NCBI GenBank assembly: GCA_045546075.1
Contig: JAZQCF010000017.1
Location: forward strand, 10,254 to 74,253
Length of the DNA stretch: 64,000 bases
Reading direction: 5' to 3'
DNA from: Candidatus Enterousia sp.
GTDB lineage: Bacteria > Pseudomonadota > Alphaproteobacteria > Rs-D84
Of the stretch, positions 19,427 through 61,486 are shown in pieces (position 1 is the stretch's first letter; every line of letters starts with the position of its first letter). Below the pieces are notes generated by a model. The model saw nothing but the letters and a program-made list of their open reading frames with translations, was not told where the DNA came from and searched no databases. Position numbers and translations under genes: made by a program.

Positions 19427-19452
19427 AAAAAACGCCCAATCGGGCGTTTTTT
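19427..19452. terminator. bidirectional Rho-independent terminator
   Basis: AAAAAA-CGCCC-AATC-GGGCG-TTTTTT between prfA (+) and the convergent 19451-19963 gene (-). Confidence 0.75.
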
Positions 19453-19963: not shown

Positions 19964-20095
19964 ATTTTCCCTCTTTCTGTTTCGTGTTTCGCTCGGCATA
20001 AAATATGCCTGCGCGCAAATTTGTGTTTTTGTTCGAACTTCGCTAACGCTCGTTCTTACATACAAATTTTGCTTGTTTGATTTTATGTCTATAAT

Positions 20096-23877: not shown

Positions 23878-24381
23878 TTAATAATTATAGCATTGGCACG
23901 TGCCACCACTGCAATGTGGAGTTTTACACTCTGCGCCAACAATCCCGACACAATCCGCATTTGTTGTGCACTGTTTTGCCGTAACATTAACATCAATCAG
24001 GTTCCATAACAGACAGTTTTCGTCCGTGCCTTGGCCCGGTTCGGCATCCCATTCTACGCACTGCTTATGTGTAACCGTTTTTTCTTGGGATGGTATCGCA
24101 GAAAATGCGGCGCGTGCGGTAATCAGTTTATCGCCGTCATCGTCATAATCAAAATCAACGATGCCCGCATTATAAATCCCGCGTTCACCGATTTGTCCCG
24201 CGGTATCAGTATATGTGACAACGGTTTCGCCGGGTGTATCTTCGTTTGTGCCCGCAACCGGGATTGTTGCCTGGCGCGTGGTATCAACGTACGTTTTTGA
24301 TGTAACGGTTGTATCCGCGAATACTGAATTAATTGCGATTATTGATGCAACCGCACCAATGAATAATGTTTTTTTGCTCAT
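23878..24381 (-). CDS. small secreted protein, paralog family member (167 aa)
   Basis: MSKKTLFIGAVASIIAINSVFADTTVTSKTYVDT..., ENCLLWNL, and a Cys-rich C-terminus. The RBS is AAAGGGGAACATATG. Confidence 0.75.
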   Translation of the reverse strand: MSKKTLFIGAVASIIAINSVFADTTVTSKTYVDTTRQATIPVAGTNEDTPGETVVTYTDTAGQIGERGIYNAGIVDFDYDDDGDKLITARAAFSAIPSQEKTVTHKQCVEWDAEPGQGTDENCLLWNLIDVNVTAKQCTTNADCVGIVGAECKTPHCSGGTCQCYNY

Positions 24382-36483: not shown

Positions 36484-36509
36484 AACGCGGGGCAACACCC
36501 CGTGTTTTT
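36482..36509. terminator. bidirectional Rho-independent terminator
   Basis: AAAA-CGCGGGG-CAACA-CCCCGTG-TTTTT between lpxB (+) and the convergent 892-aa gene (-). Confidence 0.7.
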
Positions 36510-39186
36510 AATTTAATATTCCTGTGGGAAGTTCATTTGGAATAACAGAGCAATCAACTGTATAGGAATTGTGACTGTTTATGGGGCACACCTGGTTAGT
36601 ATTGGGTTCCAGGTCGGAAGTACACCAATGATTTATGCTGGGGGCTTGGTTTCCTAAAATCATATAGAATCCACTTGATAGTGTACAACTTGCATCATTG
36701 GCGGTCGGCGCAGCCCAACTTCCATTTAATGCTACGGGGAGAACCGCCATGCATTTTTTGATTTGCCCCTGTTTGCTACGCCGGCCACCATTTTCCCAGC
36801 ACAAACAAGCACCCCATGCGTTTGTGTCAGTATTTAAAATATAATCCTTTGGACAGACATCTTCGCCCCCATCAATTATGCCATACAACGCAAAAAATGG
36901 GTTTGATGGATTTGGTGCCAACGGATTAAGATGGCATATATTCCCATTTGCGTCATCACTTGAACCATACCGGGTGTGATCGATGAATTGTGCTTCGACA
37001 AATTTGCCCTGGACGTTGGTGCATTGGGTAATAAGGCCGTCGATAATCTGGTTATAAACCTCGGTCGCGACACCGGTTGGGCGCAGGCGGCGGTTTTTGA
37101 ATTTATAATTGGAATCGGCCCAATCAATTAAACCTTCGGCATCACGCATTGCCCAACCGTACGCGAACATATTATCACTGTCGCCGGGTGTGGGCGCGGA
37201 ATATGTATATCGCCCGCCGGTTGATGATGACACATCTTCACGTTTCGCAATAACCATATCCAATCCGCCAAAGATTTCTTCGATTTGCGGGGCGCAACTT
37301 TCTATATCGGCGACCTGTTGTGCGCAGATTGATTTATAACCCGATTTCCGTATGCCGTCTTCGTCGTATTCATACAGTGTGAACCAATCCAATGCCGTTT
37401 TGGCAATATCGGTTGCGTTCAGTGTGTCAACAACGTTCGGCGTGAACAGACCACTGTTCGGGGCATAGAAGTTTTCATAATTTGTGCCGCCAAACCCATC
37501 AAAGCATTTTTGCGCCACCGCGCGGCACGCCGCCAAAGTATCTGTGTTGGTTTGGTTTTCGATATATTGCGCGATTATGTCTTCACCAAACATACCGTTA
37601 CAGGAATCTATGTAATCGCTGCACATCTGTTTGGTAAGGACGATTTTATTTGGTAATAAAGATGTTTCGTTTGTGCCGTCAATCAATGCCGCCATTGCCG
37701 CGGTTATTGCCGTTTCACGGTCTGCATAGCACGAAGATATTAAATCAAAACATCCGTTTTGTATGGTTTTAACCTTGGACTGTTGTGCATAGTATATGTC
37801 TAACAATGCCTTGTCCAGGTATTCCGCCCAAACCGTATCGGCGATTTCGGTACATTTGTTCAATGCGTCCGCCGCAAATTTTTTAGTTTTATTTTCAAAG
37901 TTTTTAAGGAACTTTTGATTGCTTGGGTTTTGTGCCAATTTTTGGTCAACCGCATCTTTGCCGAAATCAAACTTTAACAATTTTCCCAATTCGTTAAAGT
38001 TCACCACGCCTGCGATTGGTGCGCCCGTTGTTACGTCAATAAATTCCCCATTATCCAGGCATTTATGATAATTTGCGCCACACACCTGTTCACTAAGGAT
38101 TGCGGATTCAACCTCGTTTATACAGGTGGTCATATCGGATGAATTATGTTTCTTACGATTTTCAATCCGCGCCAGATCTAACATCGCATCGCCTTCACGT
38201 ATCGCGGTTTTCAATTCGCGTTTCTTGCCATCCAATGCGGTTTGAACCGTGTTACAATCTTGTTCAATCGCCATCAGGTATGCCGTTACCGCGCGTTGTA
38301 ATGATGCGTCGTTACAGTCCGCCGCAACCGCCGACCGGCACGATGGATAAACCGCATTATATAAATCGACACCGTTGTTTGATGCGATAACCTGGGCTGT
38401 GTCGTTCAGGCCGAACATATTTGCCGTATCGAATGACAGGTTTATACTGTTCAAATCCGACCATTTCCCACCAACGGTTGTATCGTCCCCACGGATAGAA
38501 TTCATAATCGCGGTAAGTAATGCCTTGGACGCGGATACATCGCGGGTCAGTGCGGATTCGCCATCGGACGCGGTGTGGATGGCGGTTGCCTGGGCCGCGG
38601 TCATACCAACCATATCCAGGTTTTCCGTGAATTCGGCCAATTTCGCGTTTGTATCGTCCAGGCTTTTCCGCGCGGCCATAATGTCCCCTATTCTGGTGCT
38701 GCATGAACAGCGGCGATATTCATCGTTCTTTAATGCACAGAATTGATCCATACATTGAAAATATGCGCTTTTACATTGATTGTATGCCGCGCCGGTACGG
38801 GTTTCCGCCATATTGTTTGCGGTTGTGTTTGTTGCGGCACGCACCGACATTGTCCCGGGTGTGATGCGCGACGCGGTGGATGTCGTTCGCGCATTTGTGG
38901 TGCCGTTGTGCGGGCGAATAACCGACGTACGTGTGCGCGTAACAGAATCTGTGCGTGGGGCGGAAATTGATAATGTGCCGGCGCGCGAAGCAACCGTTTT
39001 TTGGGCGCGTGTTTGCGCGGGTGTGCGCGTTGCGTCCACCGCAGAACGTGCGGCGGTTGGTGTGCGCGATTGTGTTGCCGTGCCCCGTCCCGGTTGGGTT
39101 GATGACACACCGTCACGCACCGCAGATAATGCGGGCGTGCAGGCCCAAAAGCCCAGAAATGCGCCAAAAATTAGAATTTTCTTCAT
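36508..39186 (-). CDS. large secreted Cys-rich protein (892 aa); its N-terminal part is paralogous to 11565-12503
   Basis: ORF trimmed to MKKILIFGAFLGFWACTPALSA (signal peptide). An Arg/Thr/Ala-rich tract is followed by CKSAYFQCMDQFC...RCSCS and a long Cys-containing domain. Confidence 0.75.
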   Translation of the reverse strand: MKKILIFGAFLGFWACTPALSAVRDGVSSTQPGRGTATQSRTPTAARSAVDATRTPAQTRAQKTVASRAGTLSISAPRTDSVTRTRTSVIRPHNGTTNARTTSTASRITPGTMSVRAATNTTANNMAETRTGAAYNQCKSAYFQCMDQFCALKNDEYRRCSCSTRIGDIMAARKSLDDTNAKLAEFTENLDMVGMTAAQATAIHTASDGESALTRDVSASKALLTAIMNSIRGDDTTVGGKWSDLNSINLSFDTANMFGLNDTAQVIASNNGVDLYNAVYPSCRSAVAADCNDASLQRAVTAYLMAIEQDCNTVQTALDGKKRELKTAIREGDAMLDLARIENRKKHNSSDMTTCINEVESAILSEQVCGANYHKCLDNGEFIDVTTGAPIAGVVNFNELGKLLKFDFGKDAVDQKLAQNPSNQKFLKNFENKTKKFAADALNKCTEIADTVWAEYLDKALLDIYYAQQSKVKTIQNGCFDLISSCYADRETAITAAMAALIDGTNETSLLPNKIVLTKQMCSDYIDSCNGMFGEDIIAQYIENQTNTDTLAACRAVAQKCFDGFGGTNYENFYAPNSGLFTPNVVDTLNATDIAKTALDWFTLYEYDEDGIRKSGYKSICAQQVADIESCAPQIEEIFGGLDMVIAKREDVSSSTGGRYTYSAPTPGDSDNMFAYGWAMRDAEGLIDWADSNYKFKNRRLRPTGVATEVYNQIIDGLITQCTNVQGKFVEAQFIDHTRYGSSDDANGNICHLNPLAPNPSNPFFALYGIIDGGEDVCPKDYILNTDTNAWGACLCWENGGRRSKQGQIKKCMAVLPVALNGSWAAPTANDASCTLSSGFYMILGNQAPSINHWCTSDLEPNTNQVCPINSHNSYTVDCSVIPNELPTGILN

Positions 39187-39251
39187 CTCTAAGCAAATGT
39201 TAGCAAAAATCATAAATTTTGGGCAAGGAAAAAATAAAATTTTTATAATAA

Positions 39252-39395
39252 AAGCCCGCACTTTTTTGTGCGGGCTTAAAAAATAAAAAAGGTCTGTCCG
39301 CCTTCGCCGCTAATCACGAATTTGTTCTTATTTTCTTGAACAATGCTACGGCGCGACACTCAAATTTTTTAAGCCCGCACTTTTTTGTGCGGGCT
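39252..39395. repeat. two identical 25-nt hairpins (AAGCCCGCAC-TTTTTT-GTGCGGGCT) 94 bp apart
   Basis: The copies lie at 39252-39277 and 39371-39395. The first has a T-run after it on the minus strand, so it is the likely terminator of the minus-strand tRNA pair. Confidence 0.75.
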
Positions 39396-39407
39396 AACAA
39401 AATTTGG

Positions 39408-39483
39408 TGGTGGAGCTGATGGGACTCAAACCCACGACCTCTACGATGCGAACGTAGCGCTCTATCAACTGAGCTACAACCCC
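39408..39483 (-). tRNA. tRNA-Ala (anticodon CGC)
   Basis: Reverse complement GGGGTTGTAGCTCAGTTGATAGAGCGCTACGTTCGCATCGTAGAGGTCGTGGGTTTGAGTCCCATCAGCTCCACCA. It has the G3:U70 identity pair and anticodon loop TTCGCAT. D-loop A19 and T-loop U56 replace the usual G19:C56. Confidence 0.88.
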
Positions 39484-39519
39484 AAAACTGCTATTGCGGC
39501 TTTGCCTTGCAAAGACGGA

Positions 39520-39604
39520 TGGTGGGCATAAGAAGACTCGAACTTCCAAGGGTCGCCCCACTAGTACCTGAAACTAGCGCGTCTACCAATTCCGCCATAT
39601 GCCC
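39520..39604 (-). tRNA. tRNA-Leu (anticodon CAG)
   Basis: The reverse complement starts GGGCATATGGCGGAATTGGTAGAC.... It has anticodon loop TTCAGGT, a long variable arm, and an encoded CCA. Confidence 0.88.
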
Positions 39605-39662
39605 AACAAAAGTTCTTTATCTTTTTGAAAAACACTTGTTCTCAAAAAGATATTTCAGACGC

Positions 39663-39754
39663 GCGCGTCTACCAGTTGTTCGCTTTGCTCACCACTCGTA
39701 TGCGCTCGGCTGCGCTTTGCTTGCCTTGCTAACTCGTACGCCGCCATATGCCCA
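39663..39754 (-). pseudogene. tRNA-Leu(CAG) 5' fragment interrupted by a 61-bp repeat insertion
   Basis: GCGCGTCTACCAgTT (39663-39677) and CGCCGCCATATGCCCA (39739-39754) match the two halves of tRNA-Leu positions 39577-39605. Between them lies a 61-nt insert with internal CGCTTTGCT...CTCGTA repeats. No anticodon or T arm follows. Confidence 0.65.
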
Positions 39755-39881
39755 CAAGGCGTTGCAAATAATAAACCAAATTTAATCATTTTGCAAGCAG
39801 AAAATGTATAGTTTTTGTTGTGTTGCGTATTTTTTTCTTGCACGGCGCGGAACATATTGATATTATAGTCTGCGTTCACAC

Positions 39882-39968
39882 GGGGATATGGCGGAATGGT
39901 AGACGCTGAGGACTTAAAATCCTTTGGTCATTGCGACCGTGTGGGTTCAAGTCCCACTATCCCCACCA
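39882..39968 (+). tRNA. tRNA-Leu (anticodon UAA)
   Basis: GGGGATATGGCGGAATGGTAGAC...; anticodon loop CTTAAAA; long variable arm; T-loop TTCAAGT; encoded CCA. Confidence 0.88.
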
Positions 39969-40027
39969 CACTTCGCCAAGGCTTCGTGCGGCAGGCAACA
40001 CTTCGCCAAGGCTTCGTGCGGCAGGCC
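39969..40027 (+). repeat. two tandem 30-nt units (CACTTCGCCAAGGCTTCGTGCGGCAGGCAA) abutting the CCA end of tRNA-Leu(UAA)
   Basis: Unit 1 spans 39969-39998 and unit 2 spans 39999-40027. The same unit follows tRNA-Val and the tRNA-Pro 3' fragment at 49808. Confidence 0.85.
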
Positions 40028-40049
40028 GTTAGGGGCGAATAAAATTTTT

Positions 40050-40126
40050 GGATGTGTAGCTCAGTTGGTTAGAGCGCTTCGTTCACATCGAAGAGGTCGT
40101 TGGTTCGAGTCCAATCACATCCACCA
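40050..40126 (+). tRNA. tRNA-Val (anticodon CAC)
   Basis: GGATGTGTAGCTCAGTTGGTTAGAGCGCTTCGTTCACATCGAAGAGGTCGTTGGTTCGAGTCCAATCACATCCACCA. Confidence 0.9.
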
Positions 40127-40185
40127 CACTTCGCCAAGGCTTCGTGTGGCAGGCAACACTTCGCCAAGGCTTCGTGTGGCAAGCC
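40127..40185 (+). repeat. two tandem 30-nt units abutting the CCA end of tRNA-Val
   Basis: CACTTCGCCAAGGCTTCGTGTGGCAGGCAA followed by CACTTCGCCAAGGCTTCGTGTGGCAAGCC. Confidence 0.85.
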
Positions 40186-40262
40186 ATTGGGTGACATAAA
40201 GTCGGGTATGGCCCGGATTTTTTTTATTCTTTGTTTTACCAAAGTGTGATATAATTGGTTGG

Positions 40263-41354
40263 ATGAGAATGTGGGGTGGTATTTTTTATGTTTGGTGTTT
40301 GGTCGTGCCGTGCGTAGTGTTGGCGCGCCCTTTGCCGGGCGTGGTGGTGCCGTTTCCAAATACACCGACAATAAATTATGAAAACGGATATTTGAATGCG
40401 ACCACATTTCCAAAAACGATTGCGGATATAAGTTTTACAGATCGAATGGCACTGGCATCCAGTGGGTACGAGCCTTTTAAGGATTTGCGGGCGTATCGTG
40501 ATTTGGTTGTCGAAGGCGAAGAGCATTTTATTGAACGCCAAATGGCATTGATGGAAATCGAACGCGTGGAAGATTATGAAAATATGGAAATTGATGAATA
40601 CTGTGACAATTATCCTTTGGATACAGAAAATTGCGATGTTTCGCCAGATATGTTGGACGGGATAATCGCGTACGCAGACGATTTTTCATATGGAACCGAA
40701 TATTCGGGGGCGACAATCGGTGGGGGCGCGGTTGTTGCGAATAATAAAACGCGTGGTGGTTCGTGCTATCCCGCGGCGCGCAGCAAAGATTTCAAAAATC
40801 AAATTTTAACAACCGGTCAATATGAACGTGTGTCCCCGGCATTTGAAAAGGCGATGATAACCGTGTTTCGTAAAGAAGGTAAATGTGGATATATTCCCGG
40901 AGACCCGTGTGGTTATACGTGTTATGGTATTGGACAAAATTGTACAGGCAAAACGTTGGGAATAAATGTCCGCAACCTGACCCGGGCGGATGCAGAAAAG
41001 ATATATTATGAACATTTCTGGAAAAAATATAATGTTGGTATGTTGCCAGATGTTATTGCGGGTGATGTTTTTTTGGCAATGATGGCCAGTGGCCCCAAGA
41101 CCGCAATAAGCCAATTTAGAGGATTTTTAGGTTTGCCGAAAAATTATAATTTGGATGAAAATGTTGTGGCCGCGGTTCAAGATTATAATGGTGATATTCA
41201 CAACAGGTGGTTGGATGTGCGCAAAAAATTCCTGGTCCAGGTTGCCGCAAGAAAATACAATAATCGTGTGTTAAAAGGTTGGATGCGCTCAATTCGTTTG
41301 AAACGTGAAAATGGGTGTCACGTTATTCCGGCGACACCCATATACAGACAATAA
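40263..41354 (+). CDS. secreted GH108-like muramidase with a C-terminal peptidoglycan-binding (PG_binding_3-like) domain and a novel N-terminal module
   Basis: The GH108 pattern FEKAMITVFRKEGKCGYIPGDPCGYTCYGIG...LTRADAEKIYYEHFW is present. The N-terminal 80 aa contain FPKTIADISFTDRMALASSGYEPFKDLRAY, which is shared with 43672-45225. Confidence 0.65.
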   Translation: MRMWGGIFYVWCLVVPCVVLARPLPGVVVPFPNTPTINYENGYLNATTFPKTIADISFTDRMALASSGYEPFKDLRAYRDLVVEGEEHFIERQMALMEIERVEDYENMEIDEYCDNYPLDTENCDVSPDMLDGIIAYADDFSYGTEYSGATIGGGAVVANNKTRGGSCYPAARSKDFKNQILTTGQYERVSPAFEKAMITVFRKEGKCGYIPGDPCGYTCYGIGQNCTGKTLGINVRNLTRADAEKIYYEHFWKKYNVGMLPDVIAGDVFLAMMASGPKTAISQFRGFLGLPKNYNLDENVVAAVQDYNGDIHNRWLDVRKKFLVQVAARKYNNRVLKGWMRSIRLKRENGCHVIPATPIYRQ

Positions 41355-41370
41355 GATACTTAAATAATTT

Positions 41371-41688
41371 TTATCGTAATCCCAATGCGCGACAGCACGC
41401 AGATGCCGCGGTTTTCCAATCGGAATATTGCTTTTCTGGGTTACGCAGGTCGCGCCAACCCTGCCATCCGGAACAATTTTTCTTGGTGCCGGTCCCGGTG
41501 CATTTTACATATCGGCGCAATGAACAAGTTTGATTTGATAACTTTCCCAAATCGGTTGTGCATTTCACAACAACGTTTTGATTCTTTGCATCTTCTTTAC
41601 CCAATTCTTTGGAAGACATAACCTGGTATGCGGATGCGGATGCGATTGTTGCAATAACTAATACAAATGCGGTAAAAAATTTTTTCAT
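41371..41688 (-). CDS. small secreted Cys-containing protein (105 aa)
   Basis: Signal peptide MKKFFTAFVLVIATIASASA; six Cys in the mature part. Last gene of the 45730-to-41371 minus-strand cluster. Confidence 0.6.
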   Translation of the reverse strand: MKKFFTAFVLVIATIASASAYQVMSSKELGKEDAKNQNVVVKCTTDLGKLSNQTCSLRRYVKCTGTGTKKNCSGWQGWRDLRNPEKQYSDWKTAASACCRALGLR

Positions 41689-41764
41689 TTTAACCCCCTG
41701 TTCTATTCATTTACATTTTATAAAATTTTTAACAAATACTCAACAGGTTTTTTGTCGGTTGTAT

Positions 41765-43669
41765 TTACTGTGCAGTGGACCAGGGTTCATCGTTCATTAC
41801 CAACCAATACAGTTCTTGGAAATCTGTACCGGGATTGCGAATAATTGGGCGCACGACGTATATATCAACATCGCACGCGTGGCGGCCGGTTTCGTCCTGA
41901 ATCTCGGTCAGGTCTTGCCAGAATTTTTGCGCAAAATCCATCGCTTGCAGGTATGCGGTATCATCATCGGCGACATTCGTCGAATCACCCGCCCACATTA
42001 ACCACATCCCATAATTTACGACATTGTCTTGACCTTCGATAGAATCAGCGGAGAGCAACAACAACGGTTTCATATCGATTCCATTTGTGAATTCGTCTGT
42101 TTCGGTGTCCGCCCAATCATAGAAACCGCCGATAATACCAATAACAAAATTCAATGCTGCCAAATCTTCGCCGACACGTGCAACGCGTCCAATGTTTCGG
42201 CGGGTGGAATGGAATAACCAATCGCGCACGCGTCCAGATGTGGATGCCTGGCGTGCGATTTTTTCTGCGCGGTCCAATGTTTTTGCCCCGCTGTGTGCAG
42301 CCTTGGCCGATTTACCCAGGTTTTTTGCCCCCGTCCATATACGCGTGATAACGTTTCCACTGCGCGCGTTTTTAAGAGTTTTTAATTCCTTGCTGTATTT
42401 AATAACGTCTTTTAACGCGTCGTATTCTTTGACATATTCGGCAACATTTTTATCGGCGCGCGCCATTTCCGCCATAGTTTTTTCGATTTCACCAATATTT
42501 TTACGATTTTGCGCGATGAATTTTTCTATTTTTTCAATATCTTCGACCTTGTCAATTCCTTGACCGGCGCGTCCAACCCGCCACATATTTTGGGACTTTA
42601 ATTTGCGTGCGTTTTCCAGTTGTTTTGCAATTTTTTCATATTTGGCCGAACCCTTGGATGCCTTGGCCAGGGCCTGTTCCAGTTTTTCTATATTGCGGAT
42701 TGATTTTGCCAAATCGTTCATATTATCAATTTCTTTGGTGTATTTTGCGACCTGTAAAGAATGGCGCAGGTATTTTTGAACCGATTCGAATTTAACCAAT
42801 GCCTTTAATGAACTGCGCAGCCTGGATGCGGTGTGTGCCGCGCGTGCGCCCTTAGATACGCCGGATAATACCGCAAAACCGCCATACGACACGACGGTCA
42901 ATGCGATATCAACAACCACCTCGACTGCGGAAATCCATTTCAGGTTTCGGTCGCCGGCAATATAGTAATTATTTTTATCGCCGTCGTGTTTTGCCGTGTG
43001 GTCGTGAATAACATTGTGAACCATAGAATTATTTGTTTTTGCGCCGATGCCGGTTTTTGTGGCGCACCAACCATCCATATTGCGCGGATATAATTTGTCT
43101 ATATTTTGTTCAACCCATTTCATTGAAACCGTATTGTTTTTGTTCGGGCCGACAAATTCGCGCAACGCGCCCGATTGGGTTACCATAACACCATACCACG
43201 CCGGTTCGGTGTTCACCCACGTGGCGTTGGCATCGGTTGATGCAACAGATGGATTTGGGTTGTTTGTGGGCAATTCGGTTTTGGTTGCCAACATAAAGCG
43301 TTGGTCCAATACACGTGGTTGGGTTTCATAATTTATTTCTATCGTGCGGCCATTTGGGAAAGTGTATTTAATTGGCATAAACAGTGTGGCGGTATCATCC
43401 GCATCCGCAATTTCCGGACAGGACAACACGGCACCCAAAGCCTCGGGCGATTGGATGACATCATAAATCCAATCGCGCACGGTTTCACGGTCGTCGTTTT
43501 TATTAACCATAAAAGAATTTTCGCGCAGCGCATTTTCAAATTCCGCCGTGGCACATTCTGTATTTACCGGTCGCGCCGCATTCAGCAATTCCGCCGTTGT
43601 GTTTATATCCCCCGCCGCAAACGCAGTAATTGGAAAGAGAAGAAAAAGCAGAACGGGCTTTAAGAGCAT
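41765..43669 (-). CDS. large secreted/membrane protein with a central coiled-coil region (634 aa, hypothetical)
   Basis: Start moved to the ATG at 43669 (MLLKPVLLFLLFPITAFA), because the ORF-track start at 43684 is a TTG. A hydrophobic segment at ISAVEVVVDIALTVVSYGGFAVL is followed by a Lys/Glu-rich coiled coil. Confidence 0.7.
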   Translation of the reverse strand: MLLKPVLLFLLFPITAFAAGDINTTAELLNAARPVNTECATAEFENALRENSFMVNKNDDRETVRDWIYDVIQSPEALGAVLSCPEIADADDTATLFMPIKYTFPNGRTIEINYETQPRVLDQRFMLATKTELPTNNPNPSVASTDANATWVNTEPAWYGVMVTQSGALREFVGPNKNNTVSMKWVEQNIDKLYPRNMDGWCATKTGIGAKTNNSMVHNVIHDHTAKHDGDKNNYYIAGDRNLKWISAVEVVVDIALTVVSYGGFAVLSGVSKGARAAHTASRLRSSLKALVKFESVQKYLRHSLQVAKYTKEIDNMNDLAKSIRNIEKLEQALAKASKGSAKYEKIAKQLENARKLKSQNMWRVGRAGQGIDKVEDIEKIEKFIAQNRKNIGEIEKTMAEMARADKNVAEYVKEYDALKDVIKYSKELKTLKNARSGNVITRIWTGAKNLGKSAKAAHSGAKTLDRAEKIARQASTSGRVRDWLFHSTRRNIGRVARVGEDLAALNFVIGIIGGFYDWADTETDEFTNGIDMKPLLLLSADSIEGQDNVVNYGMWLMWAGDSTNVADDDTAYLQAMDFAQKFWQDLTEIQDETGRHACDVDIYVVRPIIRNPGTDFQELYWLVMNDEPWSTAQ

Positions 43670-43671
43670 AC

Positions 43672-45225
43672 CTAGTTGTTCCAAGATTTGTCATATAATA
43701 TGAATGGCGGTTCGGTTGGTAGCCACTTGTTATCTGCGGTCTTTTTCATAAAGAACACCATCCAATAGCCTTTTGAATAACAGTATTTTTTTCTGTCCGC
43801 CTCGGTTAAATTATTCAATGCATTTTTGACAAGTTCTATTTGGTTTGCTGTTAATTTTTTTATCGGTCGACCAGCAGAATATTCTGTTAAAAAGCCGCCG
43901 TATGGATACACTTTTCCCGTAATGGGTTCAATCGCGTCTGTTACAAGCCCATGACCATCTTGATATTCATTCTTGAAACATTTTTTTATAGAATTTGGTT
44001 GGCTTTTATAACAACCAAAGGCCTCGCTTGGTATAGATGCCATACCAATGGACGAAACATCCGGGATTGTGTTGCCACGACATTCAAAAATCGCATATTC
44101 TTCTGTGCCGGTACTGATATTTTCCCCATCATCATCCCAACGGCCGCTGTGCCCGCTGTCTCCACTGGATTGGCCGCCGCCAAAACTGTCGCCGGTGTTG
44201 CCGATGGTACCGTCGCCGTCACCATTATCAATAATGCCCGGTTTTACACATCTATATCCGTCCATTTCATATCCGGTATTGCAAGTGCACTTGCCGTAAA
44301 ATATTTTATCATCGCGGTCGTTTGGCGAAATTGTATATGATGTTTGACAATTTGTTAATGCGGCATCTGTGCACCATGCCGAACATGTCCCGTGATTGAT
44401 GGTCGGTGTGCATGACACGGTTGCGCCCCGCCCCGTCATATATGTTTGCGGGCATCCCTTGGCACCGGCACCGACATAACTTATGTTGTGGGTCAATACC
44501 GATTTCATACGTTCATAGTATTCGTTTTCGGTTTCAAATTTGGGTGTTTTATATGCGCTTAAATCTTTATACGGTTCGTAACCCGCCGATGCGTTTGCCA
44601 TACGGTCGGTAAAAGACAAATCGTCAATCGTTTTTGGAAACGCCGCCGGTGTGACCGCCGCCGTGGCCGTTGTTTGACGTTGCAATCGTTCCAATTCCGC
44701 CGCGCGTTCATCAAATTCGGTTGTGGGGATTGTAAACGGATTTTCAATTTGGATTGATGGCGCGGTTGTTTTGGTTTGTGTTGGAACAATATTCACAATG
44801 CCCGCGGACGAATTGCCGTATGTTTTTTTATAATTTTCAAAGATTGTATCAATGTATCCACCGCACGATGTCGCAAAATTATGTCCCGGTAATTGCGACA
44901 GTTGCACCATCACATTTGGGCGCACGTCTGCGATACGCAGGTTTGAACAATTCTGTCTGTCCGCGCAATATGTTGATACCAGGTTTTGAACGATTCGGTT
45001 ACAATCGCCCGTATTCAAATCCGGCCCGGTTGCGTAAATCGGTGTTGGAAAACGTTGGTTGTACGGACTGTTTGGTGTCCAAAACGGATTTGAAGAATAT
45101 TTATTCACAGATTGAATTTCGCCGTATTTTGACATAATGTTTGGCACGTTCTGGGCCGCAAAAGCGGTCGCGCACACGCAAAGTGCCACGAACGATACCG
45201 CGAAAAATCCGTGTGTTTTATTCAA
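43672..45225 (-). CDS. secreted Cys-rich protein with an EGF-like module (517 aa, hypothetical)
   Basis: The N-terminus is MNKTHGFFAVSFVALCVCATAFAA. It contains CTCNTGYEMDGYRCV (EGF-like) and a Gly/Asp/Ser-rich linker. It shares the FPKTIxDxSFTDRMAxASxGYEPxKDLxAY module with the GH108-like protein. Confidence 0.75.
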   Translation of the reverse strand: MNKTHGFFAVSFVALCVCATAFAAQNVPNIMSKYGEIQSVNKYSSNPFWTPNSPYNQRFPTPIYATGPDLNTGDCNRIVQNLVSTYCADRQNCSNLRIADVRPNVMVQLSQLPGHNFATSCGGYIDTIFENYKKTYGNSSAGIVNIVPTQTKTTAPSIQIENPFTIPTTEFDERAAELERLQRQTTATAAVTPAAFPKTIDDLSFTDRMANASAGYEPYKDLSAYKTPKFETENEYYERMKSVLTHNISYVGAGAKGCPQTYMTGRGATVSCTPTINHGTCSAWCTDAALTNCQTSYTISPNDRDDKIFYGKCTCNTGYEMDGYRCVKPGIIDNGDGDGTIGNTGDSFGGGQSSGDSGHSGRWDDDGENISTGTEEYAIFECRGNTIPDVSSIGMASIPSEAFGCYKSQPNSIKKCFKNEYQDGHGLVTDAIEPITGKVYPYGGFLTEYSAGRPIKKLTANQIELVKNALNNLTEADRKKYCYSKGYWMVFFMKKTADNKWLPTEPPFILYDKSWNN

Positions 45226-45250
45226 TTCCCCCTATCCTTTATACGCCATA

Positions 45251-45730
45251 TTATAACAAAAATGCGGTTATAATCAAAGACAAAATTCCACCAATTATGA
45301 AAAAGGGTGCAAAAGGAATAAATTTCTGTTTCTTGCGATAGGCCCAGGCCGCACCAAATATACACGCAAAAACCAGTGTGATTGCCAAACCTGTTGGGCC
45401 GCACCACAGGCCGCCCGCCGCAATCAACTTTATGTCGCCCATACCAATCGGCGTGTCGGCACCCGGGGTGCGTCGCGTGATAATGCGGTCAAATATTAAC
45501 CCGATTGTTGCCGCCATAATATATCCAAACGTCATACCGACAACGCCCGATGCAATATCATGTGGCCACGGGAAAAAAGTCACCAAAATTGCCCCAATAA
45601 TTATTAACGGAAATAAATATGCATCTGGTATTATTCGCCGCCGCATATCCGCCATCGCGATTTTATAGCACAATACCAAAGCCATTAAAATCAACAATGC
45701 GAACATCGCATAAAATATGTATAAAAACAT
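45251..45730 (-). CDS. A24-family prepilin peptidase (CpaA-like, 160 aa)
   Basis: ORF trimmed to MFLYIFYAMF... after AAGGGGGAAATA. Polytopic, with Asp motifs RRIIPDAY and GMGDIKLIAAGG. Confidence 0.75.
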   Translation of the reverse strand: MFLYIFYAMFALLILMALVLCYKIAMADMRRRIIPDAYLFPLIIIGAILVTFFPWPHDIASGVVGMTFGYIMAATIGLIFDRIITRRTPGADTPIGMGDIKLIAAGGLWCGPTGLAITLVFACIFGAAWAYRKKQKFIPFAPFFIIGGILSLIITAFLL

Positions 45731-45806
45731 TATTTCCCCCTTGCGTTTCGAATCGGTTTTATGATACACTTATCATATCATATAAAGCGATTAAGGTTTA
45801 GGAAAA

Positions 45807-46406: not shown

Positions 46407-48536
46407 ATGCCGAGAGAGAAAAAAGATTTTGAAACATTGCATCCTGTGGATTACGATATCGCCGGAAATGCCTTTCGTGCGTGGAAAAATGACGCAGATG
46501 AATTAATATTCGTCTTGGATGAAACAATCGATGATTTTAAGCCGAATGTTCTGTTGGTGTTGGCGGGGCGCGATGATCGCAAATGGGACGATATTTTGGC
46601 AAATGATTATGGAATAAACCTGGAAGATGTCCGTCCCAAGGTTGATAATAAATATCAAAAATTGGATATTGAATACACTGGGCTGGATGTGTATGCCCAG
46701 TTGATTGATGATTATGAACGTGGCGCAGATTTGGATGCGATTATCGCCGATTTGATTGATTTTCGTGATACGGCGGCGCGACGGTCGGCGATGGCGCGCC
46801 TTGCGGTGGCAAATGATATTATTGCGGCGGCCGAAGATACAATTCTGCGGACGGAACGCACGAAAAATGGTCTGCGCGAACGGCGACAGAATTTGCGGGC
46901 ACGATTGGCCAAACAACGGGAATATATCGGTCGTGAACCAACGAAACAATCGGCGGCGCGTATCCTTAGGACCGAGGCGCAAATTGACACGATTGCCGAA
47001 AAGTTGGCACGTGCAGAAAAACGTATAGAAAATGCAAAACATCGTATAGAGATTGCAACCGAAGATGCAAATGCCGCACGTGATTTACTGGCGCGGCGAC
47101 GGACGGTCTTACCGGGACGTACAGATGCGGTAACAGAACAAGTTGAGCCAGTTGTTTTGCCGGCGCGTAAGAAATCGGCTGTTGCAAAAACCCGTGCGAT
47201 AGAAGATACAGAAATCGCTGATGCGGAACCGGCGATTTTAATTGATGCAAATAACAATAAATCGACCGAACCGGATGATAAAGATGATGAGCCTGTTTTC
47301 TTTCCGGTGCCGGATTACGAATATCAATCACAACCCAGGGATGAAGAAATGGCAGATCAGGAAGAAGTAAAACCTTTGTTGGACCAAGACCCCGAAATAC
47401 TGGACGAAGAAATCGCGTTCAAACCGGTGGAATTTGATGATATTAAACCGCGGGTGGATGATGTGCCGGTAAAACGCGAATATGCGGAACCTGAAAGTAT
47501 GTCCGGCGACAGAACGGGCGCGGTTGCGCGGCCATTGGCATTTTCGGGCGCGGATGTTGATACTGATGATGTATCGCCGGATGATACGAACGTTGAAGAT
47601 GCGGAAGCCGTTTCACCGGACGAGGCACCTGTGTTGGATACAATAAAAACCGTGGCGGAACCAAATGTGGCGGATACCGACACGACCGGGCATACAACCA
47701 ACACTCAATACGATAATGCGGAACCTGTGCGTCCGGCCGCGCCGACACGTGCAACACCGGTTACGCCCGGATATACACGCCCTATTTCGCCGATTACCGG
47801 TAATGCACCCGTACGTCCGGTTGGGGAAAATCGCGGCCGTTCGGGTTTTGCGTATTATTTATTACTGATATTATTGATTGCGCTGTCCGTGTTTACTTTG
47901 TGGCTGTACCAGAAAAAGAACGGCAACAGTGTTCCATTTTTGAATGCGCCAACCGATGGAATGATTGAACAGCCGGCAAAAGACCCAACAAATGATGTAC
48001 AGGTTGGATTTGATGAACCGCAACCCATTATAGAACCTGTGATGGTCGAACCAGAACCGATTGTTGAACCCGAACCGGATATCCCGGTTGTTATTGAAAA
48101 CGAACCGATTAAAATCGAATATCCAAACAATAATGTCTTGCGTGCGGCAGAACCCGATGTCCCCGTGGTCGAGGCCGAAGAAGATGTCTTGGCACGCAAA
48201 GACGCGTATGATGTTGCGCGCGAAGATAAACCGATATATGTTCCAATGCCGGAACCGCGTGTAACCAATGTGGTTGCACCGGATGTGATATTTGATGACG
48301 ATATTATATCTGTGCCGGCGGAACCTGCGAACTATGTAGATGAAGGTGTGTATGTTGACGACGAATCCGTTTATTATCCGGACCAATATTATGATGCAAA
48401 TGCAGAATATTATGATGAATATGTTGATAATGCGGGCGGTTTTGTTGAAGAGCCGCGTGAACCCAAAACCACACGTCATTTGGATGTATATGATGGTGGG
48501 CAATACAGTATTGGATATACCGAAACAACATATTAA
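46407..48536 (+). CDS. hypothetical bitopic protein (709 aa): coiled-coil N-terminus, single TM, acidic Pro/Glu/Val/Tyr-rich C-terminus
   Basis: Long ORF 21 nt after gcrA. TM segment FAYYLLLILLIALSVFTLWLY; no family recognised. Confidence 0.7.
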   Translation: MPREKKDFETLHPVDYDIAGNAFRAWKNDADELIFVLDETIDDFKPNVLLVLAGRDDRKWDDILANDYGINLEDVRPKVDNKYQKLDIEYTGLDVYAQLIDDYERGADLDAIIADLIDFRDTAARRSAMARLAVANDIIAAAEDTILRTERTKNGLRERRQNLRARLAKQREYIGREPTKQSAARILRTEAQIDTIAEKLARAEKRIENAKHRIEIATEDANAARDLLARRRTVLPGRTDAVTEQVEPVVLPARKKSAVAKTRAIEDTEIADAEPAILIDANNNKSTEPDDKDDEPVFFPVPDYEYQSQPRDEEMADQEEVKPLLDQDPEILDEEIAFKPVEFDDIKPRVDDVPVKREYAEPESMSGDRTGAVARPLAFSGADVDTDDVSPDDTNVEDAEAVSPDEAPVLDTIKTVAEPNVADTDTTGHTTNTQYDNAEPVRPAAPTRATPVTPGYTRPISPITGNAPVRPVGENRGRSGFAYYLLLILLIALSVFTLWLYQKKNGNSVPFLNAPTDGMIEQPAKDPTNDVQVGFDEPQPIIEPVMVEPEPIVEPEPDIPVVIENEPIKIEYPNNNVLRAAEPDVPVVEAEEDVLARKDAYDVAREDKPIYVPMPEPRVTNVVAPDVIFDDDIISVPAEPANYVDEGVYVDDESVYYPDQYYDANAEYYDEYVDNAGGFVEEPREPKTTRHLDVYDGGQYSIGYTETTY

Positions 48537-49127: not shown

Positions 49128-49152
49128 AATTTTGTATCAAAAGGAGTCATAT

Positions 49153-49428
49153 ATGAAAAAATCACGTCTTTTATTGGTTGCTGGCGCGGTTGCAGTGTTT
49201 TTATCGGCGGGTTCTGCATTTGCGGCACCGGTGCATGGTGGACATCATTCTGTGCCCCATCACACGGTAACCTATGTCCAAAGTTCGGCGCATCATCATC
49301 CGCGACCGGGGCATCATCATGGCGGTGGGCATCATAATGTTGCGCATCACCACCATCATCATCACCATAACAATACCGCGGGCAATATTATTTTGGCCAC
49401 GGCATTATTGGTGTCTGCATTTATGTAA
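49153..49428 (+). CDS. secreted His-rich protein with a C-terminal hydrophobic tail (91 aa)
   Basis: ORF trimmed to MKKSRLLLVAGAVAVFLSAGSAFA after AAGGAG. The mature part is about 40% His, including HHHHHHHH, and ends with GNIILATALLVSAFM. Confidence 0.7.
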   Translation: MKKSRLLLVAGAVAVFLSAGSAFAAPVHGGHHSVPHHTVTYVQSSAHHHPRPGHHHGGGHHNVAHHHHHHHHNNTAGNIILATALLVSAFM

Positions 49429-61140: not shown

Positions 61141-61486
61141 AATTGCCGTACAGTTGGACGATAAGCCGGATTCTGTCCCGCCCAGGCCCCGTGTCGTTCC
61201 GGCGCGTTCGACACCAAACATTGGGTGGTGGACATAATTAATCTGCACATTGTGTTACCACCATGTGTCAAGCCCTCTACCCGCCTCCGATTCGGGACAA
61301 ATCATAGAGGCCTATTTGAAGTTGCTGCACACAGAGATTGCCCGTTTCACTCAGGTCGAACCTGCTTCGTCACTGTTGCTCTAATCGTCGGGTTGCCCCG
61401 CCCGGCCGTTAACCGGTGTGCTGTCCCGCGCAGTCCGGACTTTCCTCCGCCACAAATGTAACGGCTATGTCCTGTCCAACTGTTGC
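61141..61486 (-). ncRNA. rnpB: RNase P RNA (bacterial type A)
   Basis: The minus strand carries the universally conserved GGCGGAGGAAAGTCCGGAC (reverse complement of about 61431-61450) and ACAGAATCCGGCTTATCG (reverse complement of 61159-61176). P1 pairs ACAGTTGG at the 5' end with CCAACTGT at the 3' end. It has its own promoter and terminator. Ends are uncertain by about 5 nt. Confidence 0.9.

What the first reader, a model, noticed from the sequence alone, without database searches (positions are those of the whole stretch)
41371..45730. Operon led by an A24 prepilin peptidase but containing no pilin, ATPase, secretin or platform genes, only three novel secreted proteins
Four genes lie on the minus strand with 2-75 nt spacers: a CpaA-like peptidase (45251-45730), a 517-aa Cys-rich EGF-like protein, a 634-aa coiled-coil protein and a 105-aa Cys-containing protein. 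The cluster sits between gcrA and a tRNA cluster with repeat scars, and faces a GH108-like muramidase.

The 517-aa protein starts MNKTHG|FFAVSFVALCV.... This is a short basic leader ending in Gly followed by Phe and a hydrophobic stretch, which resembles a class III (prepilin-type) signal apart from lacking Glu at +5. It also reads as an ordinary Sec signal with an AFA|A cleavage site.

A prepilin-peptidase-dependent secretion or surface-display module for large non-pilin substrates would be unusual.
Basis: partly seen in the sequence, partly recalled or inferred. Interest (0 to 1): 0.65.

Follow-up and report, generated by a model that had tools for sequence, protein, structure and literature searches.

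The report
Prepilin peptidase operon with swappable secreted proteins
A gut bacterium with a tiny genome keeps a pilin-cutting enzyme in one operon with three unknown exported proteins; these are ordinary Sec exports rather than pilin-like targets, one has a tail that differs between strains, and the enzyme's real target is still unknown.

Summary
The minus strand carries a 159-aa A24 (TadV/CpaA-type) peptidase, then proteins of 517, 634 and 105 aa, between gcrA and a tRNA cluster and facing a GH108 muramidase.

- **Organism.** Candidatus Enterousia (order Rs-D84), uncultured gut Alphaproteobacteria with genomes under 1 Mb.
- **Conservation.** The order gcrA<>A-B-C-D holds in all 77 species-level loci that reach upstream, and in 30 of 31 metagenome loci with 6 kb or more of upstream flank. 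The median A-B spacer is 25 nt. Both catalytic Asp motifs are kept in 77 of 77.
- **Class III reading of B fails.** Gly6 is not conserved. B, C and D all have variable Sec signals that end small-x-small just before conserved mature ends.
- **No pilus parts nearby.** I found no pilin-like ORF and no PilB/TadA-type Walker A signature in the window or 1.5 Mb of related loci, and no pilus or secretin Pfam domain in the window.
- **New findings.** B has a conserved ~300-aa N-module plus a swappable cargo, replaced as a cassette between 98-99% identical strains. In other species the cargo is a separate gene, Flg_new repeats or GH108. The facing muramidase carries a 49-aa piece of the same N-module.
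- **B, C and D** match no known family or fold.

Best reading: a lineage-specific envelope or surface module co-transcribed with a peptidase whose substrate lies elsewhere. I could not check the rest of the genome.

The parts
45251..45730 (-). A: 159-aa A24 aspartic peptidase of the short TadV/CpaA type, with no methyltransferase domain. It is the first gene of the operon.
   Evidence: Pfam PF01478 at 48.3 bits against GA 26.5. The motifs aD(M/F/W/L)xxRIIPD and G(M/L/F/I)GD(I/V/L)K are present in 77 of 77 orthologues. About five hydrophobic segments. Shine-Dalgarno sequence plus ATG.
45731..45806 (.). 76-nt divergent intergenic region shared by gcrA and the peptidase. It contains one GANTC site (GATTC).
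   Evidence: Sequence read. The gcrA-A distance is 60-94 nt in 75 loci.
44236..45225 (-). B, conserved part (aa 1-330). Sec signal (aa 1-24), a conserved N-module (about aa 30-245) that includes a four-Cys helical domain (aa 70-137), then a Cys-rich beta domain (aa 245-330).
   Evidence: Alignments. AF2 pLDDT is 84-90 for aa 70-137 and above 90 for aa 245-330. The family has 355 clusters at 50% identity with lengths of 196-738 aa.
44494..44640 (-). 49-aa segment of the B N-module (aa 196-244, FPKTIDDLSFTDRMANASAGYEPYKDLSAYK...) that is shared with the GH108 protein. I read it as a candidate docking motif.
   Evidence: BLASTP of B aa 196-244 against E aa 49-97: 57% identity, E 1.6e-13. F196, P197, T199 and D202 are invariant.
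43663..44235 (-). B, variable C-terminal cassette (aa 331-517). It is replaced by unrelated sequence in near-identical strains.
   Evidence: L088 and L089/L090 are 98-99% identical in DNA to the window on both sides, but carry unrelated segments of 831 nt and 707 nt here. P0003 and P0004 are 99% identical to B over aa 1-329/330 only.
41765..43669 (-). C: 634-aa protein with a Sec signal, an acidic N-domain with three invariant Cys (aa 20-245), a hydrophobic segment at 251-269, a basic Cys-free coiled-coil region (aa 270-500), a weaker hydrophobic segment at about 503-519, and an acidic C-domain (aa 520-634).
   Evidence: Hydropathy and charge analysis. AF2 gives helices at 271-496 and pLDDT of 70-90 in the two end domains. 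No PDB sequence match or Foldseek match at E <= 1e-3. 201 homologues, all from Alphaproteobacteria MAGs where a name is given.
41371..41688 (-). D: 105-aa precursor giving an 85-aa mature six-Cys protein. It is the best conserved product of the cluster.
   Evidence: D is 59-91% identical where C is 38-80%. The mature end YQV..SSKELGK.DAKNQNVVVKCTTD is invariant and follows small-x-small in 85 of 85.
40263..41354 (+). E: secreted GH108 muramidase, convergent with D. It carries the B-type 49-aa motif at aa 49-97 (nt 40407-40553). In effect it is a B-family member whose cargo is a muramidase.
   Evidence: PF05838 at E 3e-12. phrog_315 endolysin at E 2.6e-18. Motif match. In L107 the gene at the same position has the full N-module fused to GH108. 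In 13 GTDB loci a GH108 gene sits on the operon strand between C and D.

Best explanation
This is a lineage-specific cell-envelope operon of Candidatus Enterousia / order Rs-D84.

Shown:
- A catalytically intact TadV/CpaA-type A24 peptidase is packed directly upstream of three exported proteins. The spacing makes co-transcription almost certain.
- B, C and D enter the periplasm through Sec and are cut by signal peptidase I. They are not prepilin-like substrates.
- B is modular. A conserved ~300-aa N-module carries an exchangeable C-terminal cargo that differs between strains.
- The cargo can be a separate gene, Flg_new repeats, a C-like domain or a GH108 muramidase.

Inferred:
- C is an inner-membrane scaffold with both end domains outside the cytoplasm and a basic coiled coil inside.
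- D is a small disulfide-bonded periplasmic partner.
- The B N-module, including the 49-aa motif also present on the neighbouring muramidase, docks variable cargo onto this C/D scaffold. That would present adhesin-like or wall-cutting domains at the surface for contact with a partner cell.
- The peptidase serves a substrate that is not in the operon. The likeliest candidate is a small pilin-like protein encoded elsewhere and expressed together with the module.
For: Operon reality and conservation.
- gcrA(-) A B C D(+) occurs in that order in every one of 77 GTDB species loci that reach far enough upstream. C identity falls to 38%.
- The same order is found in 30 of 31 metagenome loci with 6 kb or more of upstream flank.
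- The A-B spacer has a median of 25 nt and lies within 4-48 nt in 74 of 77 loci.
- No terminator-like site lies between the genes.

Active enzyme: both Asp motifs are present in 77 of 77.

Sec/SPase I rather than class III.

Modularity of B.
- Domain boundaries are shown.
- A cassette is replaced between 98-99% identical strains.
- Stand-alone cargo genes fall into three families that are homologous to the C-terminal halves of long B proteins elsewhere.
- Flg_new, GH108 and PG_binding_3 cargo occur in family members.
- A full N-module is fused to GH108 in L107.
- The 49-aa motif is shared with E.

C topology: the charge split is 52 K+R against 25 D+E with no Cys in aa 270-500, while the acidic Cys-bearing ends lie outside it. 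Helices are shown.

Biological setting: Rs-D84 genomes are under 1 Mb, lack flagella and standard transporters, and are thought to depend on partner cells (PMC12306168).
Against: - No experiment or structural match ties B, C or D to any function. Foldseek and HMM searches gave nothing at E <= 1e-3.
- Docking of the N-module onto C/D is pure inference. No complex was modelled.
- The whole neighbourhood (X709, gcrA, LpxB and others) is syntenic across the order, so adjacency alone is weak evidence that A works with B, C and D.
- The unit can be broken. D stands alone in L145/L147 and L146. C is absent from the operon in L107/L108.
- The second hydrophobic segment of C is weak (below 1.4 on Kyte-Doolittle), and AF2 gives low confidence for both segments.
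- No substrate for the peptidase has been identified anywhere.
Confidence: 0.45

Rival explanations
1. Synteny only. A is simply the genome's single TadV/CpaA. It serves a Tad/Flp pilus or a type II-like system encoded elsewhere. Its place in front of B-C-D is a frozen accident of gene order in a reduced genome, and B, C and D do something unrelated in the envelope.
For: - X709 and gcrA, a cell-cycle regulator with no expected link, are just as invariably adjacent. This shows that order is frozen here.
- D can be found away from A-B-C.
- B, C and D have no feature that an A24 peptidase is known to need.
- From my own knowledge, other small alphaproteobacterial genomes such as Liberibacter keep Tad loci.
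Against: - The A-B spacer is 4-48 nt in 74 of 77 species, while both outer flanks have rearranged: ACPS is inverted, and F917 and LpxB have moved.
- In Tad loci the peptidase normally sits with flp and the machinery genes. None is within 64 kb here or within +/-10 kb in about 110 relatives.
- A survey of Rs-D84 genomes reported type IV pili only for another lineage (PMC12306168).
Confidence: 0.3
2. The A24 peptidase matures B (and perhaps C and D) through a class III-like signal, giving prepilin-peptidase-dependent secretion or display of large non-pilin proteins.
For: - In this strain B begins MNKTHG|FFAVSFVAL.
- A is co-transcribed with B.
- From my own knowledge, archaeal PibD processes large sugar-binding proteins, so a precedent exists outside bacteria.
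Against: - Gly at -1 is not conserved: MNKSYRFF, MIKYNHIF, MKKTNCLF and MRSATVIF occur in relatives. Only 33 of 210 family members have any K/R..G + hydrophobic start.
- There is no Glu at +5.
- Sequence conservation starts after an A-x-A site, which means the hydrophobic stretch is removed rather than retained.
- C and D show the same pattern in 80-85 orthologues.
Confidence: 0.05
3. Non-canonical intramembrane role. A, a GxGD aspartic protease, cuts within or next to the Gly-rich hydrophobic segments of C or of the cargo proteins. Examples are C aa 251-269 ..VVSYGGFAVLSG.. and the G/A-rich C-terminal segments of cargo family 1. It would release or mature them much as rhombosortase or signal-peptide peptidase do in other systems.
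For: - Tight operon linkage with an intact enzyme but no canonical substrate nearby.
- G263 is invariant in the hydrophobic segment of C.
- Cargo family 1 ends in a long Gly/Ala-rich hydrophobic stretch followed by a conserved tail ..QQVMVMDGPYLIK.
Against: - To my knowledge no A24 peptidase is known to act this way.
- The first hydrophobic segment of C would have the opposite orientation (N-out) to prepilins.
- No conserved basic-Gly junction precedes the second segment, since G500 is not conserved.
- The X709 transmembrane junction also lacks a conserved Gly.
Confidence: 0.08
4. Polymorphic toxin or antagonism locus. The B N-module is a trafficking domain and the variable C-termini, including GH108, are toxins delivered to competitors.
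For: - A conserved N-terminus with a C-terminal cassette swapped at strain level.
- Muramidase cargo in some family members.
Against: - No small immunity-like gene follows the variable end. C overlaps or abuts B directly, with a spacer of 64 nt or less in about half of the loci.
- Most cargo has no toxin domain, and the recognisable cargo is adhesin-type Flg_new repeats.
- No known delivery machine lies nearby.
Confidence: 0.07

Closest known systems
TadV / CpaA prepilin peptidases of Tad (type IVc, Flp) pilus loci
   Same: A is a short A24 peptidase (159 aa) with no N-terminal methyltransferase domain. It has both catalytic Asp motifs (D-x5-IPD and GxGD) and about five hydrophobic segments, and it comes from an alphaproteobacterium.
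   Different: No flp pilin, TadA/CpaF ATPase, TadB/C platform, RcpA/CpaC secretin or TadE/F pseudopilin lies in the operon, in the 64-kb window, or within +/-10 kb in about 110 related loci. The enzyme is instead followed by three orphan Sec-exported proteins.
Archaeal PibD/FlaK-type peptidases that process non-pilin class III precursors such as Sulfolobus sugar-binding proteins (from my own knowledge)
   Different: Those substrates keep a conserved class III signal (basic leader, small residue at -1, retained hydrophobic N-terminus). B, C and D do not.
Proteins with a conserved N-terminus and exchangeable C-terminal cassettes, such as polymorphic toxins (CDI/Rhs/MafB) and variable adhesins or receptor-binding proteins (from my own knowledge)
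   Same: B has a conserved ~300-330-aa N-terminal part and an unrelated C-terminal domain in strains that are 98-99% identical in the flanking DNA. Cargo can be fused or encoded separately.
   Different: There is no immunity gene, no recognised toxin domain apart from occasional GH108, and no known secretion machine. The N-module matches no known trafficking domain.
Specialised peptidoglycan hydrolases attached to envelope-spanning machines, such as the GH108 muramidase SagA of Brucella and VirB1, FlgJ and EtgA (from my own knowledge)
   Same: A GH108 muramidase is encoded beside or inside the cluster and shares a sequence module with B. This suggests recruitment to the same assembly.
   Different: The machine it would serve is unknown, and the gene is absent from some loci such as L006 and L007.

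Membership tests
Peptidase family A24 (type IV prepilin peptidase), TadV/CpaA subtype: protein A | Matches the Peptidase_A24 profile above the curated threshold | tested here: met
   PF01478, E 1.5e-12, 48.3 bits against a cut-off of 26.5. All 120 listed homologues carry PF01478.
Peptidase family A24 (type IV prepilin peptidase), TadV/CpaA subtype: protein A | Two catalytic aspartates, the second in a GxGD motif | tested here: met
   xD(M/F/W/L)xxRIIPD and G(M/L/F/I)GD(I/V/L)K occur in 77 of 77 orthologues. Assigning these as the catalytic residues rests on my knowledge of TcpJ, TadV and FlaK.
Peptidase family A24 (type IV prepilin peptidase), TadV/CpaA subtype: protein A | Short form without the N-terminal methyltransferase / DiS_P_DiS domain | tested here: met
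   The protein is 159 aa and Pfam finds only the A24 domain.
Peptidase family A24 (type IV prepilin peptidase), TadV/CpaA subtype: protein A | Cleaves a class III (prepilin) leader of an identified substrate | not testable with these tools
   No candidate substrate was found in the window or in 1.5 Mb of related loci. The rest of the genome could not be read.
Tad/Flp (type IVc) pilus locus | Flp-type pilin gene (G|xxxxEY + hydrophobic) next to the peptidase | tested here: not met
   Motif scans gave no real hit in the window. In 87 loci they gave only antisense artefacts, while the control sequences were detected.
Tad/Flp (type IVc) pilus locus | TadA/CpaF secretion ATPase, TadB/C platform and RcpA/CpaC secretin in the locus | tested here: not met
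   No such Pfam domain was found in the window proteins scanned. No G.(T/S)GSGK(S/T) Walker A signature occurs in any ORF of the window or of 87 loci. C and B have no structural match to these parts.
Tad/Flp (type IVc) pilus locus | Such genes present elsewhere in the same genome | not testable with these tools
   Only +/-10 kb around matches can be fetched. A published survey reports type IV pili for another lineage and not for Rs-D84, but it does not address Tad explicitly (PMC12306168).
Class III (prepilin-type) signal peptide substrates: B, C, D | Conserved small residue (Gly) at -1 after a short basic leader, with the hydrophobic stretch retained in the mature protein and usually Glu at +5 | tested here: not met
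   B: Gly6 is not conserved, 33 of 210 family members fit, and there is no Glu at +5. C and D: there is no Gly junction and the h-region is variable.
Sec / signal peptidase I substrates: B, C, D | n-h-c signal with small residues at -3 and -1, poorly conserved, followed by the conserved mature sequence | tested here: met
   B..A-x-A|AQNAP. C..AFA|AG. D: A-(N/H/S)-A|YQV, with small-x-small in 85 of 85. No SignalP-type predictor was available, so the call is comparative.
Polymorphic toxin systems | Conserved N-terminal part with variable C-terminal domain | tested here: met
Polymorphic toxin systems | Cognate immunity gene immediately downstream of the variable end, and recognisable toxin domains | tested here: not met
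   C abuts B directly, or a cargo gene homologous to B C-termini intervenes. Pfam finds only Flg_new, GH108, PG_binding_3 and CPL1-like in 128 members.
GH108 N-acetylmuramidase: protein E | Matches the Glyco_hydro_108 profile above threshold | tested here: met
   PF05838, E 3.1e-12, 47.3 bits against a cut-off of 21.2. phrog_315 endolysin, E 2.6e-18.

The most novel reading that the evidence does not exclude
Enterousia / Rs-D84 genomes have no type IV filament machinery at all, and the A24 peptidase works with the B-C-D module on a non-pilin target. For example, it might cut a Gly-rich membrane segment of C or of a cargo protein to release or activate surface-displayed, strain-variable cargo. 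This would be a pilus-independent function for a bacterial prepilin-peptidase homologue, inside a new partner-contact apparatus of an uncultured, partner-dependent gut lineage.
Probability: 0.13. Interest if true: 0.8.

Novelty: new variant of a known kind. Interest (0 to 1): 0.45.

Why it matters
- **A selected but unexplained enzyme.** Rs-D84 / Enterousia bacteria are common in rumen and hindgut. Their genomes are under 1 Mb and they are thought to live off partner cells, yet nothing is known about how they make contact. A gene set that survives genome reduction in every sampled species is a good candidate for that interface. Here it includes an intact peptidase, a tiny ultra-conserved Cys protein, a membrane coiled-coil protein and a protein whose outer part is swapped between strains.
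- **A possible new role for A24 peptidases.** If the genome proves to lack pilus machinery, the peptidase would be the first bacterial A24 enzyme with a non-pilin job.
- **The ordinary outcome.** If a Tad locus exists elsewhere, the peptidase is ordinary. What then remains is a new family of modular secreted proteins with a shared docking module.

Tried and rejected
**Searches for known relatives of B, C and D (nothing found).**
- An exact-sequence look-up of B found nothing on record. The 97% identical P0001 was used instead.
- Pfam, NCBIfam, PHROGs and PADLOC returned only coiled-coil noise for C.
- PDB sequence searches with profiles of B and C, and with A alone, returned nothing or designed coiled coils.
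- AF2 models of C (pLDDT 66) and B (pLDDT 70) were searched with Foldseek against PDB and BFVD. There was no match at E <= 1e-3.
- The weak hits were saposin-like for B aa 70-137 and B-repeat-like for B aa 245-330. I treat these as leads only.
- Pfam on ten cargo genes gave nothing above threshold. One SseC-like hit (E 8.6e-4, 19 bits against GA 30) was dismissed.

**Searches for a peptidase substrate or an outgroup.**
- X709, the gcrA-linked membrane protein, reads RGRSG|FAYYLLL in this strain. I considered it as a hidden internal class III-like substrate and rejected it, because the Gly is not conserved in 75 orthologues.
- I looked for a conserved basic-Gly junction before the second hydrophobic segment of C. 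G500 is not conserved.
- The homologue search with A listed only orthologues from the same lineage, so I got no outgroup context.

**Other ideas rejected.**
- A prophage origin for the cluster, suggested by the GH108 gene and the tRNAs, was rejected. The cluster is fixed in all species and only E has a phage-family match.

**Literature.**
- Searches for pili or Tad in Rs-D84 and for orphan prepilin peptidases gave only PMC12306168. No supplements are held for that paper.

- I could not read whole Enterousia genomes. Contigs of 0.85-1.0 Mb exist but only +/-10 kb around a match can be fetched.

Full report
**1. What is in the sequence**

The minus strand between 41371 and 45730 carries four close-packed ORFs.

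| Gene | Coordinates | Size | Note |
|---|---|---|---|
| A | 45251-45730 | 159 aa | ATG behind a GGGGGA ribosome-binding site |
| B | 43672-45225 | 517 aa | TTG start |
| C | 41765-43669 | 634 aa | |
| D | 41371-41688 | 105 aa | |

- Spacers are 25, 2 and 76 nt.
- A matches Peptidase_A24 (PF01478) at E 1.5e-12, 48.3 bits against a cut-off of 26.5.
- gcrA lies divergently 76 nt upstream of A.
- A GH108 muramidase (E, 40263-41354, +) converges on D.
- Four tRNA genes follow at 39408-40126, with repeats behind two of them.
- B, C and D match nothing in Pfam, NCBIfam, PHROGs or PADLOC beyond coiled-coil noise in C.

The label 'EGF-like' for B is not.

**2. Whose genome this is**

- Homologues of B, C and A come only from uncultured Alphaproteobacteria MAGs of rumen and gut.
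- A scan of one genome per GTDB species with a C alignment found 122 relatives. Many of the 80 kept are named Candidatus Enterousia. NCBI places the genus in Alphaproteobacteria incertae sedis.
- A 2025 survey assigns Enterousia to order Rs-D84. It describes genomes of 0.75-1.0 Mb without flagella, respiratory chains or standard transporters, and a probably partner-dependent lifestyle.
- That survey reports type IV pilus genes only for a different, verrucomicrobial lineage (PMC12306168).

**3. Is the operon conserved?**

- In every one of 77 GTDB loci that reach upstream of C, the order is gcrA(-), A, B, C, D (all +). C identity falls to 38%.
- Among JGI/ENA metagenome loci fetched with a D alignment, 30 of 31 with 6 kb or more of upstream flank show the same order.
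- The A-B spacer has a median of 25 nt and lies within 4-48 nt in 74 of 77 loci. The gcrA-A gap is 60-94 nt. The C-D spacer has a median of 73 nt.
- No terminator-like hairpin separates the genes. There is one promoter-like site in the 3' end of A.
- Both catalytic motifs of A (xD-x5-IPD and GxGD-hydrophobic-K) are present in 77 of 77 orthologues. The enzyme is therefore under selection in a genome that has shed most functions.

Two cautions apply.
- The wider neighbourhood is also syntenic (ArgS, OmpA-like, ACPS, a 709-aa membrane protein, gcrA ... a 917-aa Cys-rich protein, LpxB, LpxA). The outer flanks have rearranged in some species while X709-gcrA-A-B-C-D stays together.
- The unit is not unbreakable. 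D stands alone in L145/L147 and L146. In L107/L108 the operon is A, short B, cargo, D, with no C.

**4. The class III signal idea**

- Close relatives start MNKSYRFF, MIKYNHIF, MIKRNRFF, MKKTNCLF, MKYPGNLF or MRSATVIF.
- Only 33 of 210 family N-termini have any basic...Gly + uncharged-stretch arrangement in the first 12 residues.
- Conservation begins after an A-x-A site, with AQNAP..SKYGEIQSVNKYSSNPFW. This is what one expects when the hydrophobic stretch is a removed Sec signal.
- C (..LFPLTAFA|AG in close relatives, quite different h-regions in distant ones) and D behave the same way in 80-85 orthologues.
- D has small-x-small directly before an invariant YQV in 85 of 85.
- No Glu at +5 occurs in any of the three.

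I conclude that all three are Sec / signal peptidase I substrates. No SignalP-type tool was available, so this is comparative evidence.

**5. Is there a pilus or a substrate nearby?**

- A scan for [G/A/S]-x4-[E/D] followed by an uncharged stretch behind a short basic leader detects Flp and PilA controls.
- It finds nothing in the 64-kb window, and only antisense artefacts in 1.5 Mb of related loci.
- No ORF in the window or the 87 loci has the G.(T/S)GSGK(S/T) Walker A typical of PilB, TadA or GspE.
- Pfam on the other window ORFs shows housekeeping genes (trigger factor, SSB, M23 peptidase, ExbD, ArgS and others) and many lineage-specific secreted ORFans. It shows no T4P, Tad or T2SS part.
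- The gcrA-linked 709-aa membrane protein reads RGRSG|FAYYLLL before its transmembrane helix in this strain, but that Gly is not conserved.

The rest of the genome could not be read with these tools.

**6. What B, C and D look like**

B (AF2 mean pLDDT 70):
- An extremely conserved but unstructured stretch at aa 30-66.
- A helical four-Cys domain at aa 70-137 (pLDDT 84-90), with only a weak saposin-like hit.
- A conserved region at aa 170-245 of low confidence.
- A Cys-rich beta domain at aa 245-330 (pLDDT above 90), weakly like Listeria-Bacteroides B-repeats.
- A Gly/Asp/Ser linker and a C-terminal domain at aa 375-517.
- No Foldseek hit reaches E 1e-3 in PDB or BFVD.

C (AF2 mean pLDDT 66):
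- A cleavable signal, then an acidic N-domain with three invariant Cys.
- A hydrophobic segment at aa 251-269.
- A 230-aa basic, Cys-free helical region (52 K+R against 25 D+E).
- A weaker hydrophobic segment at about aa 503-519.
- An acidic C-domain with an invariant Cys.
- This pattern fits an N-out / loop-in / C-out membrane protein, but both hydrophobic segments are modelled with low confidence.
- Foldseek finds only helical-bundle noise.

D:
- An 85-aa mature protein with six Cys.
- By far the best conserved product, at 59-91% identity where C is 38-80%.

**7. New finding: B is modular and its cargo is exchangeable**

- P0003 and P0004 are 99% identical to B over aa 1-329/330 and unrelated after that.
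- At the DNA level, three contigs from other samples (L088, L089, L090) are 98-99% identical to the window from gcrA to position 44236/44210, and again from 43662/43647 onwards. In between they carry unrelated segments of 831 nt or 707 nt. This is a cassette replacement confined to the 3' end of B.
- In about half of the species, B is a short gene holding only the N-module (290-320 aa) and is followed by a separate secreted 'cargo' gene before C.
- These cargo genes fall into three main families (18, 15 and 8 loci). They are homologous to the C-terminal halves of long B proteins in other species, so fusion and fission have occurred.
- An exhaustive HMMER search with an N-module profile finds 355 clusters (at 50% identity) among 1.84 billion proteins. 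Lengths run from 196 to 738 aa, and the module is at the N-terminus in the best 150.
- Pfam recognises cargo only occasionally, out of 128 members scanned in total:

| Cargo domain | Members |
|---|---|
| Flg_new repeats | 13 |
| GH108 | 4 |
| PG_binding_3 | 1 |
| CPL1-like | 4 |

**8. The muramidase belongs to the same family**

- E shares 57% identity over 49 aa (E aa 49-97 against B aa 196-244, E 1.6e-13) with the B N-module.
- In L107 the gene at the same convergent position is a full N-module fused to GH108.
- In 13 GTDB loci a GH108 gene sits on the operon strand between C and D.
- The gene is missing from some loci such as L006 and L007.

The muramidase that the operon 'faces' is therefore another cargo on the same module.

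**9. Interpretation**

Shown:
- A real, conserved, co-transcribed unit with an intact A24 peptidase.
- Three Sec-exported orphan proteins.
- A modular B family with strain-level cargo swapping.
- A sequence link to a muramidase.
- No pilus parts within reach.

Inferred:
- C and D form a membrane/periplasm scaffold.
- The B N-module docks variable cargo (adhesin-like repeats, wall-cutting enzyme) to that scaffold for contact with partner cells.
- The peptidase acts on a substrate encoded elsewhere.

The main rival is that A sits here only by frozen synteny and serves a Tad system elsewhere. Its weight depends entirely on the untested rest of the genome. A non-canonical intramembrane role for A, and a polymorphic-toxin reading, remain possible but have little support.

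**10. Comparison with known systems and verdict**

- A passes every sequence test for a TadV/CpaA-type A24 peptidase. The locus fails every test for a Tad, T4P or T2SS locus.
- B resembles polymorphic C-terminal cassette proteins in architecture only. It has no immunity gene and no toxin domains.
- B, C and D have no detectable relatives outside this lineage and no structural match.
- The finding is more than ordinary. It is an intact prepilin peptidase that heads an orphan, cargo-swapping envelope operon in a genome-reduced, partner-dependent lineage.

Interest 0.45.

Noticed in passing
window 39941-40033 and 40099-40191: The 3' ends of tRNA-Leu(taa) and tRNA-Val(cac) are each followed by two tandem copies of a ~30-nt unit (CACTTCGCCAAGGCTTCGTG(C/T)GGCAGGCAA). 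The two 93-nt stretches are 86% identical. Their function is unknown; they could be terminators or REP-like elements.
   Followed up: no
window 39252-39284 and 39371-39403: Two copies (94% identical) of a perfect hairpin AAGCCCGCAC-TTTTTT-GTGCGGGCTT flank the region between the 917-aa gene and tRNA-Ala. They are probably bidirectional terminators.
   Followed up: no
window 46407-48536 (+): A 709-aa protein starts 21 nt after gcrA and is syntenic with it in all loci. It has an N-terminal coiled coil, a Pro/acidic-rich middle, one very conserved transmembrane helix (YYxLLIxLIxLSxFTLWLYQKK) and a C-terminal part outside. It belongs to no known family.
   Followed up: partly
window 36508-39261 (-), 49905-52361 (-), 2074-6642 (+), 61625-64000 (+): The window is rich in very large, Cys-rich, signal-bearing proteins specific to this lineage. 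They are a 917-aa protein, an 818-aa protein with CarboxypepD_reg and OmpA domains, a 1522-aa protein, and a protein of more than 790 aa with a Flg_new repeat that runs off the window end. How they cross the outer membrane is unknown.
   Followed up: partly
window 49132-49428 (+): A 98-aa protein with a signal peptide, a His-rich core (HHHHHHHH, HHGGGHH) and a hydrophobic C-terminus. A gene of 89-106 aa is called at the same syntenic position in relatives.
   Followed up: no
window 61146-61483 (-): RNase P RNA, bacterial class A, 197.7 bits.
   Followed up: no
window 19451-20065 (-) and 23878-24381 (-): Two paralogous small secreted proteins (34% identity, E 2e-12) with no Pfam family.
   Followed up: no
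window 45731-45806: The 76-nt gcrA / peptidase divergent promoter region contains a GANTC site (GATTC), the CcrM methylation motif that GcrA-dependent promoters use in Caulobacter (my own knowledge). The sequence was read.
   Followed up: no
L145 (9968-10312), L147, L146 (4861-5193): D homologues at 71% identity stand alone with no A, B or C within the flank. One case is a 51-52% GC genome next to TrpRS and a DUF1211-like gene. Another follows a 1543-aa Cys-rich protein.
   Followed up: partly
L087 8741-10291; P0414, P0116, P0118, P0120: A second, C-like gene lies upstream of C in L087. Some B-family proteins carry a C-like domain as cargo after the N-module. The C-terminal domain of C (..CDVDIYVVRPIIRNPG..) therefore recurs as a module.
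   Followed up: partly
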